DNA of 64,000 nt from Escherichia coli (GTDB taxonomy: Bacteria > Pseudomonadota > Gammaproteobacteria > Enterobacterales > Enterobacteriaceae). The stretch lies in the NCBI RefSeq assembly GCF_024298765.1, contig NZ_CP101210.1; one strand, given 5' to 3'. Under the pieces are notes generated by a model, which was given only the letters and a program-made list of their open reading frames with translations, was not told the origin of the DNA and did not search any database. Positions 47,283 to 51,463 of the stretch are shown here, piece after piece (the stretch's first letter is position 1; each line of letters starts with the position of its first letter). The position numbers were made by a program, and so were the translations under genes.

Positions 47283-47621
47283 ATGACAGAGCAGTGACGG
47301 CACAGGTGAGACGTGGTGGATTGAATTTGATCCTGCTGTTGACAGTGAAATCCGCAAGACATGTCCGGCAGTGATCGTGAGCAATGACGCAGCAAACAGG
47401 AACCTCGCTCGAGTAGTCGTCGTTCCTCTGACCAGTAACACAGAGCGAGTGTATCCAAGTGAGGCTGTTGTGACCGTAGGTGTCAGAGCAGCAAAGCGAT
47501 TGTAGAGCAGATTATGGCGGCGGATAAGTCCTGTCTCAAAACACATATTGGCTCGTTGTCCAAAGCAGATATGTTGTCTGTTGAGGACGCAATCAAGATC
47601 CATCTTGGTTTACTGCGGTAA
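47283..47621 (+). pseudogene. PemK/MazF-family toxin gene relic (frameshifted, no antitoxin gene)
   Basis: Translations in two frames: ...WIEFDPAVDSEIRKTCPAVIVSNDAANRNLARVVVVPLTSNTERVYPSEAVVTV... then ...IGSLSKADMLSVEDAIKIHLGLLR*; the 5' ATG is out of frame. Confidence 0.4.
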
Positions 47622-48189
47622 CGCCATGTGAATCTGTCGGCTACCGCCATTAGTGACGGAATTTTCTGTGGGGCAGCGTACCAATGGCATTCGGTTAAGT
47701 TCTTGCTGGAGCATCAAAAGAGTTCCAGCGCGTTCTGGGCCGTACATATTTTCGTGGGTAACACCTCCCTGGCCTTACTCGCTGAGTCATACAACTGCGA
47801 TCGATTCAGATGCCATTTTGCAATCAGCCTCTCAGAAAGAGCGCAACAGAATGATTTTAAATGTTTTCCTGTTACCCGAATCAGTAAAGACAAGTACCTC
47901 ACTACGAGAAACAAGCAGTTTTTGAAATTAAAATTTTGTTTATTTCTACTACTACCGATGAAAACGTTATTATCTTAATAATTAATGTCATTTCAGGATA
48001 TCCATGTAAGGTTAAGTAATAATATATGAGCCTGTATTTTTATTTTACATCTTTCTCACTCTGTGAATGAAAATCTTCAATAGAAAATTTGATTTGAATA
48101 ATTTATATAACTCTTCTATATTACATCAATGCCGATAGAAATCGTAAAAAGCTTCGTTTTCATAAAAATCTCTTTCAATAATATTTGTA

Positions 48190-49340
48190 GCTGGACCAGC
48201 CCCTTGAAACGCCAGATAGTGGATGTATCTTAAAATAAGAGACAGGCTTGGATATATGTCTGACACTGGTTCTAATTTTGAGATGACTGGAACTTTGCCG
48301 GGGCTGGAGCTTCGTAAACGTAAAACTCCTCAGGAAAAAATTGGCATTATTCAGCAGACAATGGAGCCTGGCATGGCGGTGTCACATGTGGCGCGTTTGC
48401 GTTGTATTCAGCCCTGCCTGTTGTTTAAGTGGAAAAACAATCTCTGGAAGGAAGTCTCACTGCTGTTGCTTCAGGAGAGGGTGTCGTTCCTGCCTCAGAA
48501 CTGCCTGCCGCTATAAAACAAATAAAAGAGTTACAGCTCTTGCTGGGTAAAAAACCATGGAAGTTTAGATCCTCAAAGAAGTGGTGGAGTATGCGCAATC
48601 GCGAAAATGGATAGCGCATGTGCCCTTGTTACCTTCGGACAAGGAATAGCCCCGGTAAGCCGTGTTCTGGGCGATACTCAGGCGGCAGTCCCTAAATGAA
48701 GGACTACCGTTAGTGAATGCAAAGCGCGTTTACCGGATAATGAGCGAAAATATCCTGTTGTTACATGACAAACCATCACGACTGCAGCGGGAACATAAAG
48801 GCCGAATATCGGTAAGGAAAGCGACCAGCGTTGATGTTCTGATGGCTTTGAGTTCGGTTGCGATGATGGCGAAAAAGTCCGGGTTACGTTCGCCCTGGAC
48901 TGTTGCGATCGTGAAGCTATCGACTGGGCATCCAATACGGGAGGTTACAATAAAGCGACAGTGCAGGATGTGATGTTAGGAGCGATAGAAAAACTCTTTG
49001 GCGATAAAGTACCGGAACAGTCCATCCGGTGGTTGACAGATAACGGTTCAGCGTATAGAGCGCATGAAACACGGCAGTTCGCCAGAGAGTTGGATCTGGA
49101 GCCCTGCACAACGGCAATCAGCAGCTCTCAGAGTAATGGAATGGCAGAAAGGTTAGTGAAAACGATGAAGGAAGACTACATTGCGTTCATACCGAAACCG
49201 AATGTAATAACGGCATTGCATAACCTTGCATAGGCGTTCGAGAATTACAATGAGAACCACCCGCATAGTGCGTTAGGTTATCTCTCACCACGGGAATATC
49301 GATGTCAGCGGATAACGTCACCTTAGATGTAGCAGTTGCC
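48190..49340 (+). mobile_element. Degenerate IS2-group (IS3 family) element; orfA and orfB broken into at least four frames
   Basis: Fragments RKRKTPQEKIGIIQQTMEPGMAVSHVAR..., [77 protein letters not shown]...[32 protein letters not shown] parallel IS2 InsC/InsD at ~60 percent identity. Confidence 0.6.
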
Positions 49341-49492: not shown

Positions 49493-51463
49493 ATGTATAT
49501 GAATGTAATCAGAACTGTCATTTGTACATTAATTATAGTCCCGGTGGGACTACAGGCAGCGACCAGTCATTCTTCTATGGCTAAAGATACAATCACCATT
49601 GTCGCGACAGGAAATCAGAACACGGTATTTGAAACGCCGTCGATGGTCAGTGTCGTCACGAATGACACACCGTGGAGTCAGAATGCGGTTACATCGGCCG
49701 GCATGCTGAAAGGTGTTGCCGGTCTCAGCCAGACTGGTGCAGGACGGACCAATGGGCAGACCTTTAATCTACGCGGCTATGACAAAAGCGGGGTACTTGT
49801 TCTTGTTGACGGCGTCCGCCAACTCAGTGACATGGCAAAAAGCAGTGGCACTTATCTGGATCCGGCTCTTGTCAAACGTATCGAAGTTGTCCGCGGGCCA
49901 AACTCCAGTCTGTACGGCAGTGGCGGGCTGGGAGGTGTAGTGGACTTCAGAACTGCCGATGCAGCAGATTTCCTTCCCCCCGGAGAGACAAACGGTTTAA
50001 GTCTGTGGGGAAATATTGCCAGTGGTGACCACAGCACAGGCTCGGGGCTCACCTGGTTCGGTAAAACCGGAAAAACAGATGCGCTCCTTTCTGTCATTAT
50101 GCGTAAAAGAGGTAATATCTATCAAAGTGATGGTGAGCGCGCACCTAACAAGGAAAAACCTGCAGCCCTGTTTGCGAAAGGCTCTGTCGGTATAACAGAC
50201 AGTAACAAAGCAGGTGCCAGCTTGCGTCTCTACCGGAATAACACCACTGAACCGGGCAATCCCACTCAGACACATGGTGACAGCGGCCTGCGTGACAGAA
50301 AAACAGTACAAAATGACGTACAGTTCTGGTACCAGTACGCTCCTGTGGATAACAGCCTCATCAATGTAAAGTCAACGTTATATCTCAGTGATATCACTAT
50401 CAAGACAAACGGTCACAACAAAACGGCAGAATGGAGAAACAACAGAACCTCCGGTGTTAATGTTGTCAACAGGAGTCATACTCTGATTTTTCCGGGAGCC
50501 CATCAGTTAAGTTATGGCGCTGAATATTACCGTCAGCAGCAGAAGCCAGAAGGCTCTGCCACACTATATCCGGAAGGAAATATTGACTTTACATCGTTGT
50601 ATTTCCAGGATGAAATGACAATGAAAAGCTACCCTGTTAACATTATCGTCGGTTCCCGCTATGACCGGTACAAGAGCTTCAATCCCCGTGCCGGAGAACT
50701 GAAAGCCGAACGCCTGTCCCCAAGGGCGGCGATTTCAGTCTCACCGACAGACTGGCTGATGATGTACGGCTCCATATCCTCTGCATTCCGAGCGCCCACA
50801 ATGGCAGAAATGTACAGGGATGATGTACATTTTTACCGCAAGGGTAAACCCAATTACTGGGTTCCTAACCTTAATCTGAAACCAGAAAATAACATCACCC
50901 GTGAGATTGGCGCAGGTATTCAACTGGATGGCCTGCTTACAGACAATGACCGGCTGCAGTTAAAAGGCGGATATTTCGGAACGGATGCCAGAAACTATAT
51001 TGCCACACGCGTGGATATGAAACGGATGCGTTCTTATTCTTATAATGTATCCCGGGCCCGTATCTGGGGATGGGATATGCAGGGAAATTACCAGTCTGAT
51101 TATGTTGACTGGGTGCTTTCTTATAACCGGACGGAAAGTATGGATGCCAGCAGCAGGGAATGGCTGGGCTCCGGCAATCCTGACACACTTATCAGTGACA
51201 TCAGCATACCTGTTGGTCATAGAGGCGTTTATGCCGGATGGCGTGCTGAACTTTCAGCATCAGCCACGCATGTGAAAAAAGGCGACTCCTATCAGGCTGG
51301 CTATGCCATACATTCCTTTTCACTGTCTTATAAGCCTGTAAGTGTTAAAGGCTTTGAGGCGTCAGTAACTCTGGATAATGCCTTCAACAAGCTTGCCATG
51401 AATGGCAAAGGTGTGCCGCTTTCAGGCCGAACTGTCAGTCTTTATACCCGTTATCAGTGGTAA
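49493..51463 (+). CDS. TonB-dependent outer-membrane receptor, heme-receptor-like (ChuA/ShuA/ZnuD relatives)
   Basis: 656 aa, signal peptide, plug motifs (VLVLVDGVRQ, RIEVVRGPNSSLYGSGGLGGVV), barrel ending ...YTRYQW; ~50 percent identical to ChuA by eye in conserved blocks. Confidence 0.85.
   Translation: MYMNVIRTVICTLIIVPVGLQAATSHSSMAKDTITIVATGNQNTVFETPSMVSVVTNDTPWSQNAVTSAGMLKGVAGLSQTGAGRTNGQTFNLRGYDKSGVLVLVDGVRQLSDMAKSSGTYLDPALVKRIEVVRGPNSSLYGSGGLGGVVDFRTADAADFLPPGETNGLSLWGNIASGDHSTGSGLTWFGKTGKTDALLSVIMRKRGNIYQSDGERAPNKEKPAALFAKGSVGITDSNKAGASLRLYRNNTTEPGNPTQTHGDSGLRDRKTVQNDVQFWYQYAPVDNSLINVKSTLYLSDITIKTNGHNKTAEWRNNRTSGVNVVNRSHTLIFPGAHQLSYGAEYYRQQQKPEGSATLYPEGNIDFTSLYFQDEMTMKSYPVNIIVGSRYDRYKSFNPRAGELKAERLSPRAAISVSPTDWLMMYGSISSAFRAPTMAEMYRDDVHFYRKGKPNYWVPNLNLKPENNITREIGAGIQLDGLLTDNDRLQLKGGYFGTDARNYIATRVDMKRMRSYSYNVSRARIWGWDMQGNYQSDYVDWVLSYNRTESMDASSREWLGSGNPDTLISDISIPVGHRGVYAGWRAELSASATHVKKGDSYQAGYAIHSFSLSYKPVSVKGFEASVTLDNAFNKLAMNGKGVPLSGRTVSLYTRYQW

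What the first reader, a model, noticed from the sequence alone, without database searches (positions are those of the whole stretch)
47283..47621. Degraded PemK/MazF-family toxin gene without an antitoxin
Two frames together reconstruct a MazF-like protein of ~110 aa, but the start codon is out of frame and there is an internal frameshift. No antitoxin ORF fits upstream, since that space is the ugpB promoter. This fits loss of a toxin-antitoxin module after the adjacent rearrangement.
Basis: seen in the sequence. Interest (0 to 1): 0.3.

Follow-up and report, generated by a model that had tools for sequence, protein, structure and literature searches.

The report
Dead MazF toxin gene remnant
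This is the non-functional leftover of a plasmid-type MazF/PemK toxin gene, which lost its antitoxin and start in one DNA junction and later picked up a frameshift; it is an ordinary genomic fossil in an E. coli genomic island.

Summary
The MazF/PemK-like sequence is real. Stitching 47305-47481 (frame 1) to 47484-47621 (frame 3) gives 105 of the 108 residues of intact relatives (Pfam PF02452, E=2.9e-22; 79-82% identity to 108-aa toxins). It is a pseudogene with three kinds of lesion. (1) The first three codons, the ribosome-binding site, the promoter and the whole upstream antitoxin are missing. Toxin homology starts at 47305/6, and homology to the ugpB upstream region ends at 47310, so the junction is a 6-bp overlap, GGTGAG. 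(2) One nucleotide is deleted in the Gly61 codon (47482-47483), giving a TAG stop at 47503. (3) Seven of 66 near-invariant residues are changed, including Arg-to-Cys at the catalytic Arg29 position of E. coli MazF. It is the complement of a Pho-box-like CTGTCAT half-site in front of ugpB. Intact relatives on IncFII-type and other plasmids always have a 75-87-aa antitoxin overlapping the toxin start, and no trace of one exists in the window. The same broken copy is found in about 195 of 5,426 complete E. coli genomes, so it is not a sequencing error. RefSeq already labels the larger fragment as a PemK/MazF toxin. This is ordinary and of low interest.

The parts
47305..47481 (+). Toxin remnant, part 1 (frame 1). 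It encodes GETWW...VTVG, equivalent to residues 4-62 of 108-aa intact homologs. There is no in-frame start codon: an in-frame TGA lies at 47284-47286 and no ATG/GTG/TTG lies between it and 47305.
47305..47310 (.). Junction. The hexamer GGTGAG is shared by the ugpB upstream homology (which ends at 47310) and the toxin homology (which starts at 47305/6, Gly4-Glu5). This is a microhomology breakpoint; everything 5' of toxin codon 4, including the antitoxin, is missing.
47362..47364 (+). TGT (Cys) codon at the position of the catalytic Arg (E. coli MazF Arg29). This position is Arg in 118 of 120 closest homologs.
   Evidence: role of the Arg from PMC10893535
47482..47483 (+). Frameshift site. Only two nucleotides (GT) remain of the codon that is Gly in 97.5% of homologs, a net 1-nt deletion. 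Exact placement is ambiguous within 47479-47487.
47503..47505 (+). Premature TAG stop in frame 1, caused by the frameshift.
47484..47621 (+). Toxin remnant, part 2 (frame 3). It encodes QSSKAIVEQIMAADKSCLK...GLLR plus a stop, equivalent to residues 64-108; the stop is at the same position as in homologs. RefSeq calls its Met-initiated tail (47514-47621) a 35-aa hypothetical protein.
47350..47505 (+). The 51-aa CDS that RefSeq/PGAP annotates as 'type II toxin-antitoxin system PemK/MazF family toxin' (WP_232380132.1). It has a non-canonical ATC start, is a fragment of the pseudogene, and is not flagged as pseudo.
47150..47310 (-). ugpB upstream (promoter) region, homologous to the canonical ugpB-livF intergenic region. 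Five 11-bp-phased Pho-box-like half-sites lie at 47300-47246 on the ugpB-sense strand.
   Evidence: Pho-box consensus from established knowledge
45833..47149 (-). Context: an intact orphan ugpB (438 aa), 93% identical in DNA to the canonical chromosomal locus, divergent from the remnant.
47650..47668 (+). A 19-bp exact match to sequence downstream of the intact toxin on an IncFII-type E. coli plasmid contig (L009 5511-5529). It is possibly the last trace of shared 3' flank.

Best explanation
This is a non-functional relic of a plasmid-type type II toxin-antitoxin module, made of a small upstream antitoxin (weakly ribbon-helix-helix-like) and a 108-aa MazF/PemK endoribonuclease. [quoted passage not shown] A single illegitimate-recombination or deletion junction at a 6-bp microhomology (GGTGAG, 47305-47310) fused the upstream region of an orphan ugpB to codon 4 of the toxin. 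That one event removed the module's promoter, the whole antitoxin gene, the toxin's ribosome-binding site and its start codon. Because the toxin became untranslatable in the same step that removed its antidote, no lethal intermediate was required (inference). The dead gene then drifted: one nucleotide was lost in the Gly61 codon, giving a premature TAG, and seven near-invariant residues changed, including the catalytic Arg to Cys. The order of these later lesions relative to the junction is not resolved. Nothing functional is expected to be made from it. The 51-aa and 35-aa CDSs in RefSeq are annotation fragments of the pseudogene.
For: Shown:
- Family assignment: PF02452 at E=2.9e-22 over the full profile. 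There are 4,261 homologs at E<=1e-10, and the best are 108 aa at 79-82% identity. The closest solved relative is M. tuberculosis MazF9.
- Split across frames: tblastn HSPs for aa 4-69 and aa 64-108 fall in different frames, with a net 1-nt deletion.
- Junction: homology to the ugpB upstream region of the canonical locus (L012) and of a variant island (L010) ends at 47310, and toxin homology begins at 47305/6. L010 and L012 stay homologous to each other for about 98 bp beyond that point, so the window's junction is the derived state.
- Intact modules: in every intact relative examined, a 75-87-aa gene overlaps the toxin start (6 metagenomic plasmid-like contigs; an IncFII-repA contig; plasmid pSTEC640_4, annotated 'addiction module antitoxin'; further PLSDB plasmids).
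- Antitoxin absent: the best hit in the 64-kb window has E=0.14.
- No usable start: an in-frame TGA lies at 47284 and no start codon lies before 47305. The longest conventional ORF in the toxin frame is 44 aa, starting at GTG 47371.
- Relaxed constraint: 7 changes at 66 columns that are >=95% conserved, against a mean of 0.88 and a maximum of 4 in 120 homologs.
- Catalytic residue: Cys aligns with MazF Arg29. Mutating the equivalent Arg abolishes RNA cleavage in MazF-sth, and the Arg is described as essential in MazF-bs (PMC10893535).
- Real sequence: the same broken copy is present in about 195 of 5,426 complete E. coli genomes, and one variant checked (H61) does not repair it.
- No promoter-like site lies on the + strand upstream of the remnant.
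Against: Expression was not measured. RefSeq annotates two short CDSs without a pseudogene flag. Two full-length homologs (P0004, P0053) also carry Cys at the catalytic-Arg position, so that substitution alone does not prove inactivity. The one-step order of events is an inference: the toxin could have been inactivated earlier, for example by the Arg-to-Cys change or the frameshift, and the antitoxin lost later. The 6-bp microhomology could be coincidental.
Confidence: 0.93

Rival explanations
1. The fragments are still functional. A truncated toxin peptide (the 51-aa PGAP CDS or the 44-aa GTG ORF) or the 35-aa C-terminal ORF would be expressed and have an activity, such as a dominant-negative partner or decoy for related plasmid-borne MazE/MazF.
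For: RefSeq keeps both as CDSs rather than pseudogenes. The sequence is 100% identical across many genomes.
Against: The flanking island DNA is equally conserved (99.4-99.8% over 24 kb), so the identity reflects recent common descent and not selection. The 51-aa CDS needs an ATC start. Any product from the 51-aa CDS or the 44-aa ORF lacks at least the N-terminal 18 residues, and the 51-aa CDS carries Cys at the catalytic-Arg position. No + strand promoter-like site lies upstream. Conserved residues show excess change. Some genomes have the remnant further truncated at 47573.
Confidence: 0.03
2. The frameshift and missing start are sequencing or assembly artefacts, and the real gene is intact.
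For: Single-base indels are a common error type.
Against: About 195 independently sequenced complete genomes carry the region at >=99% identity, and at least 56 listed records match at 100% over 551 bp. The 5' truncation is a homology breakpoint, not an indel. No intact protein more than 82% identical exists among 5.8 billion protein clusters.
Confidence: 0.01
3. The toxin is made by programmed events, namely a -1 ribosomal frameshift at 47482 plus non-canonical initiation, so the gene is an antitoxin-less but regulated toxin.
For: None, beyond the observation that a single -1 shift restores the frame.
Against: There is no slippery X XXY YYZ heptamer at the shift site (the sequence is GTAGGTGTCAGAG). 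There is no in-frame start after the TGA at 47284. Intact relatives are single ORFs with no frameshift. An unneutralised active MazF would be toxic.
Confidence: 0.01
4. The real gene lies on the opposite strand (the 130-aa ORF 47211-47603 or the 101-aa ORF 47153-47458), and the MazF similarity is incidental.
For: These are the longest ORFs that overlap the region.
Against: Neither ORF has a Pfam match at E<=1. The + strand similarity to MazF is overwhelming. Both minus-strand ORFs run through the ugpB promoter and Pho-box region.
Confidence: 0.01

Closest known systems
Plasmid-borne PemK/MazF-family toxin with a small upstream antitoxin, next to IncFII-type repA in E. coli (for example pSTEC640_4, CP061001.1, UIV71483/UIV71484; contig DBBEWH010000038.1) and on Xylella, Azotobacter, Sulfuricystis and Hydrogenophilus plasmids
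   Same: The toxin is about 80% identical in protein and 78% in DNA over codons 4-108, and the stop codon is at the same position. A 19-bp stretch of the downstream flank is shared with one such plasmid contig.
   Different: The plasmid copies are intact 108-115-aa ORFs with a 75-87-aa antitoxin overlapping the start. The window copy has no antitoxin and no start codon, carries a 1-nt deletion, and has 7 substitutions at near-invariant sites.
Mycobacterium tuberculosis MazF9 (MazF-mt1), PDB 5HJZ / 6KYS
   Same: It is the closest experimentally solved relative of the subfamily consensus (E=4.4e-20, full-length alignment), and it has the same conserved motifs (GEIW, DP..GSE, RPAV.VSND, VP.TSN).
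   Different: It is a distant relative, compared by sequence only. MazF9 is an active endoribonuclease paired with MazE9, whereas the window copy is a pseudogene.
E. coli chromosomal MazF (ChpAK) and R100/R1 PemK/Kid
   Same: They belong to the same Pfam family, PF02452. The window copy is 25% identical to MazF, with the catalytic Arg29 and Thr52 positions alignable.
   Different: They belong to a different subfamily: the NCBIfam MazF equivalog scores 37.5 bits against a cut-off of 120. In the window copy the Arg29 equivalent is Cys, and the locus is not the relA-mazEF or chpB locus.
Toxin-antitoxin pseudogenes and orphan toxin remnants in genomic islands (general phenomenon)
   Same: It is a decayed addiction module embedded among IS remnants in a tRNA-associated island. 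tRNA-Sec and an integrase lie about 20 kb away in the matching genome XDL.
   Different: There is nothing distinctive, except that the breakpoint can be mapped to a 6-bp overlap with a Pho-regulated promoter region.

Membership tests
PemK/MazF toxin family (Pfam PF02452) | Significant full-length match to the family profile | tested here: met
   The stitched 105-aa translation scores 79.4 bits against a cut-off of 23.1, E=2.9e-22, covering profile positions 3-108 of 109.
PemK/MazF toxin family (Pfam PF02452) | Single uninterrupted ORF of about 100-120 aa with a start codon | tested here: not met
   The gene has no start codon and is truncated at codon 4. A 1-nt deletion splits it into two frames, with a premature TAG at 47503.
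PemK/MazF toxin family (Pfam PF02452) | Catalytic Arg (E. coli MazF Arg29 / MazF-bs Arg25) and Thr (Thr52 / Thr48) conserved | tested here: not met
   The Arg position is Cys (TGT, 47362-47364), while the Thr position is retained (PLTSN). The essentiality of the Arg comes from PMC10893535. Caveat: 2 of 120 intact-length homologs also have Cys at this position.
PemK/MazF toxin family (Pfam PF02452) | Sequence-specific endoribonuclease activity | not testable with these tools
   This requires expression and an RNA cleavage assay. Given the lesions, no activity is predicted.
Type II toxin-antitoxin module (mazEF/pemIK-like operon) | Cognate antitoxin gene immediately upstream, overlapping or abutting the toxin start | tested here: not met
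   The antitoxin is present in all intact relatives examined. It is absent here: the upstream 155 bp is ugpB promoter DNA, and tblastn of three antitoxins against the whole window gives a best E of 0.14.
Type II toxin-antitoxin module (mazEF/pemIK-like operon) | Own promoter/operator upstream of the antitoxin | tested here: not met
   The sequence upstream of 47305 is homologous to the ugpB-livF intergenic region, and no + strand sigma-70-like site was found in 47100-47310.
E. coli MazF equivalog (NCBIfam NF007386) | Score above the curated equivalog cut-off | tested here: not met
   It scores 37.5 bits against a cut-off of 120. It is a family member but not an ortholog of chromosomal MazF.
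selC-associated genomic island of ExPEC/APEC (AGI-3-like) | Insertion at tRNA-Sec with an adjacent integrase, and carbohydrate-uptake gene content | tested here: inconclusive
   In genome XDL, which matches window 36000-60000 at 99.6%, tRNA-Sec and a tyrosine recombinase lie about 20 kb to the right of the remnant, and PTS, transketolase and LacI genes lie to the left. Identity with the published AGI-3 sequence could not be checked because the paper is not held. AGI-3 is described as selC-related and common in ST95 in PMC9781279.

The most novel reading that the evidence does not exclude
The remnant may be retained because it has been co-opted. The fused mazF-derived DNA now forms the distal upstream boundary of the Pho-box promoter of the island's orphan ugpB, so it might modulate phosphate-starvation expression of that gene. 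Alternatively, the 35-51-aa fragments might bind and titrate MazE/MazF of incoming IncF plasmids carrying the related module. Neither reading is excluded by sequence alone.
Probability: 0.03. Interest if true: 0.35.

Novelty: already known. Interest (0 to 1): 0.08.

Why it matters
It matters little biologically. It is a textbook example of addiction-module decay inside a mosaic genomic island. There are three small practical points.

1. RefSeq/PGAP propagates two short CDSs in about 195 complete E. coli genomes: WP_232380132.1 'PemK/MazF family toxin', with an ATC start, and WP_001313273.1 'hypothetical protein'. Both would be better annotated as one pseudogene. Toxin-antitoxin censuses that count 'orphan toxins' would miscount this locus.

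2. The mapped breakpoint illustrates how a toxin-antitoxin module can be lost safely. One deletion takes out the antitoxin and the toxin's translation start together.

3. The ATG that looked like a start codon is part of a Pho-box half-site. This is a reminder that start-codon calls next to divergent promoters need homology support.

Tried and rejected
- Antitoxin remnant elsewhere in the window: I ran tblastn with three antitoxins from intact relatives. There was no hit better than E=0.14 (at 16722-16862), which I treated as chance.
- Intact or intermediate copy in E. coli: megablast and sensitive blastn over 5,426 complete genomes found only the identical broken copy, plus one 77.7%-identical plasmid gene. 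A search of 5.8 billion protein clusters found nothing above 82% identity.
- Repair variants: the one full-length variant with an indel (H61) has its deletion at 47180, in the ugpB upstream region, and a substitution at 47465. Neither restores the frame.
- Opposite-strand ORFs (130 aa and 101 aa) and ORFs in the 600-bp downstream spacer: none has a Pfam match at E<=1 that means anything.
- Downstream flank 47622-48222: I looked for a donor element in plasmids and in E. coli genomes. It occurs only together with the remnant, apart from a roughly 35-bp motif and the 19-bp match to L009. tblastx against the plasmid flanks found nothing significant.
- Antitoxin family: the Pfam scan gave only sub-threshold RHH_1 and VAPB_antitox hits (E about 0.02), so the ribbon-helix-helix assignment is tentative.
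- The original AGI-3 paper (PMC1347334) could not be read.
- The toxin's ATG aligning to GTG 47294 with a 2-nt insertion: I considered this and rejected it, because 47283-47310 aligns better to the ugpB upstream region of two independent comparators.

Full report
**1. What is in the sequence**

Translating 47230-47660 in three frames shows two pieces. Frame 1 reads GETWWIEFDPAVDSEIRKTCPAVIVSNDAANRNLARVVVVPLTSNTERVYPSEAVVTVG from 47305 to 47481, then runs into VRAAKRL and a TAG stop at 47503-47505. Frame 3 reads QSSKAIVEQIMAADKSCLKTHIGSLSKADMLSVEDAIKIHLGLLR from 47484, with a stop at 47619-47621.

Joined, the 105 residues match Pfam PemK_toxin (PF02452) at E=2.9e-22, 79.4 bits, over profile positions 3-108 of 109. 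The NCBIfam MazF equivalog scores only 37.5 bits against a cut-off of 120. The sequence is therefore a family member but not an ortholog of chromosomal MazF.

A search of 5.8 billion protein clusters returns 4,261 homologs at E<=1e-10. The best are almost all exactly 108 aa, 79-82% identical, and begin MKRGEVWWVEFDP.... The similarity is far beyond chance.

**2. The lesions**

(a) Frameshift. The window has 317 nt where intact genes have 318 between codon 4 and the stop. Only two bases (GT, 47482-47483) remain of the codon that is Gly in 97.5% of 120 homologs. tblastn with an intact plasmid toxin accordingly gives two HSPs in different frames, aa 4-69 and aa 64-108.

(b) 5' truncation. Frame 1 has a TGA at 47284-47286 and no ATG, GTG or TTG before 47305. 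The longest conventional ORF in the toxin frame is 44 aa, starting at GTG 47371.

(c) Missense decay. At the 66 alignment columns that are at least 95% conserved among the 120 closest homologs, the window differs at 7: V to I, G to D, R to C, M to I, D to E, R to C and P to L. The homologs themselves differ at a mean of 0.88 columns, with a maximum of 4. One of the two R-to-C changes (TGT, 47362-47364) aligns with Arg29 of E. coli MazF. The equivalent Arg is reported as essential for catalysis in MazF-bs and MazF-sth (PMC10893535). The Thr52 equivalent is retained. As a caveat, two full-length homologs also have Cys at the Arg position.

**3. The 'start codon' is not the toxin's**

Comparison with three sequences shows otherwise:

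- a variant of the same island that lacks the toxin (L010, strain EC6563);
- the canonical chromosomal ugpA-ugpB-livF locus (L012);
- intact plasmid toxins (L003, L009, L011).

Homology to the ugpB upstream region runs from the ugpB ATG (47149) to exactly 47310 in both L010 and L012. Toxin homology begins at 47305/6. The six bases GGTGAG (47305-47310) belong to both. L010 and L012 remain homologous to each other for about 98 bp beyond this point, so the window's junction is the derived state.

On the ugpB-sense strand, positions 47300-47246 read CCGTCAC-tgct-CTGTCAT-cttt-CTAACAC-ttta-CTGTCTA-acac-ATGTAAT. These are five 11-bp-phased repeats resembling PhoB half-sites (Pho-box consensus CTGTCAT, from established knowledge). 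They are conserved in the canonical locus. The ATG at 47283-47285 is the complement of the CAT in CTGTCAT. The toxin remnant therefore begins at 47305 and lacks codons 1-3 (M-K/R-R).

**4. The missing antitoxin**

In every intact relative examined, a 75-87-aa gene overlaps the toxin start by 14-35 nt. This holds for six plasmid-like metagenomic contigs carrying relaxase/MobC, ParA and Xre-RES genes. It also holds for an E. coli contig where the pair follows IncFII repA, and for plasmid pSTEC640_4, where the gene is annotated 'addiction module antitoxin'. Further plasmids of Xylella, Azotobacter, Sulfuricystis and Hydrogenophilus show the same two-gene annotation.

The antitoxin (MHKRMTITLDEAVYEGLYRTVGKRRMSQFIEDLL...) has only sub-threshold ribbon-helix-helix hits. 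tblastn of three such antitoxins against the whole window finds nothing better than E=0.14. The junction at 47305-47310 therefore removed the promoter, the antitoxin, the ribosome-binding site and the start codon together.

**5. Context and distribution**

The window from 36000 to 60000 matches E. coli strain XDL at 99.6%. In that genome the locus lies in an island bounded about 20 kb to the right by a tyrosine recombinase and tRNA-Sec (selC). The island contains IS3, IS66, IS110 and IS91 remnants, a TonB-dependent receptor, an autotransporter and sugar PTS/transketolase genes. It resembles the selC-associated island AGI-3 of APEC, which is reported as common in ST95 (PMC9781279). I could not verify identity with the published AGI-3 sequence.

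The ugpB next to the remnant is an orphan. Only 45778-47310 is homologous (93%) to the canonical locus, and an IS110 pseudogene follows instead of ugpAEC.

The broken toxin occurs in about 195 of 5,426 complete E. coli genomes, and 193 of those copies are at least 99% identical. Sensitive blastn finds only one other related gene in the collection, an intact plasmid copy at 77.7% identity. A full-length variant with an indel (H61) does not restore the frame. Some genomes have the remnant further cut at 47573. Sequencing error is excluded.

RefSeq annotates 47350-47505 as a 51-aa 'PemK/MazF family toxin' with an ATC start, and 47514-47621 as a 35-aa hypothetical protein. Neither is flagged as a pseudogene.

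**6. Mechanism**

Best explanation (confidence about 0.93): this is a dead relic of a plasmid-type mazEF-like module.

The following are shown directly:

- the family assignment;
- the breakpoint;
- the frameshift;
- the missing antitoxin;
- the excess of changes at conserved sites.

The one-step scenario is inferred. A deletion or illegitimate recombination at the GGTGAG microhomology would have removed the antitoxin and the toxin's translation start together. This avoids the lethal state of an active toxin with no antitoxin. The 1-nt deletion and the missense changes would then have accumulated neutrally. The alternative order, toxin inactivated first, cannot be excluded.

I considered four rivals and rate each at 3% or less:

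- functional fragments;
- a sequencing artefact;
- programmed frameshifting (there is no slippery heptamer at GTAGGTGTCAGAG and no start codon);
- a gene on the opposite strand (no family matches).

**7. Comparison with known systems**

The closest relatives are the intact plasmid modules described above, at about 80% protein and 78% DNA identity. The closest solved structure for the subfamily consensus is M. tuberculosis MazF9 (5HJZ, E=4.4e-20). E. coli MazF is 25% identical.

The sequence passes the family's profile test. It fails the tests for an intact ORF, the catalytic Arg, an adjacent antitoxin and its own promoter. It is a pseudogene derived from a family member, not a working member.

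**8. Novelty and score**

Decayed toxin-antitoxin genes in islands are commonplace, and public annotation already names this one as PemK/MazF. The added value here is modest: a precise breakpoint, a corrected 5' boundary and a flag for an annotation error. Interest is about 0.08.

Noticed in passing
window 45778-47310 (ugpB CDS 45833-47149, minus strand): The ugpB here is an orphan second copy inside the island. Only this 1.5-kb patch is homologous (93%) to the canonical ugpBAECQ-livF locus. The ORF is intact (438 aa) and five Pho-box-like half-sites are preserved, but an IS110 pseudogene follows instead of ugpAEC. The neighbouring genes are an 'esterase-like activity of phytase' protein and, in a variant island, PhoX. 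This hints at a phosphate-scavenging theme.
   Followed up: partly
window 47093-47310 compared with L010 2944-3160: There is a sharp step in divergence between the window and the toxin-less island variant: 10 differences in 44442-47092 (0.4%) but 22 in the last 218 bp before the junction (10%). This suggests that a recombination tract edge lies inside the 5' end of ugpB. The ugpB-mazF junction may therefore have formed on a different ugpB allele and then been recombined in.
   Followed up: partly
window 47650-47668; L009 5511-5529: The 19-bp sequence TTAGTGACGGAATTTTCTG matches exactly, downstream of the toxin stop, in both the window (29 nt after the stop) and an IncFII-type E. coli plasmid contig (163 nt after the stop, just before a relE/parE-like remnant). 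It occurs once in the window, against 0.01 expected by chance. It may be the last trace of a shared 3' flank or the end of an element.
   Followed up: partly
window 47793-47829: A motif of about 35 bp in the non-coding spacer downstream of the remnant recurs at 95-100% identity on Salmonella, E. albertii and E. coli plasmids, in some records under an IS30-family transposase annotation. It is probably a fragment of a mobile-element end.
   Followed up: no
window 47622-48222: This 600-bp AT-rich spacer (37% GC, against 49% for the window) has no recognisable coding potential. In E. coli genomes it occurs only together with the toxin remnant. Its origin is unknown.
   Followed up: partly
window 48223-49260: A degraded IS3-family/DDE transposase (frameshifted, with internal stops) lies immediately to the right. 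It is followed by an intact TonB-dependent receptor (49493-51463, 656 aa), and in the matching genome XDL a DUF4198 gene follows that receptor.
   Followed up: no
RefSeq records, e.g. NZ_CP033635.1 4313141-4313412 (= window 47350-47621): PGAP annotates the pseudogene as two separate protein-coding genes, WP_232380132.1 with an ATC start and WP_001313273.1, in every one of the roughly 70 RefSeq records with the full region listed in these searches. This is an annotation artefact that would inflate counts of 'orphan toxins'.
   Followed up: yes
homologs P0004 and P0053: Two full-length 108-aa homologs from metagenomes also carry Cys in place of the catalytic Arg (KTCPAV). Either inactive toxin alleles circulate in this subfamily, or this CGY-to-TGY change recurs.
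   Followed up: no
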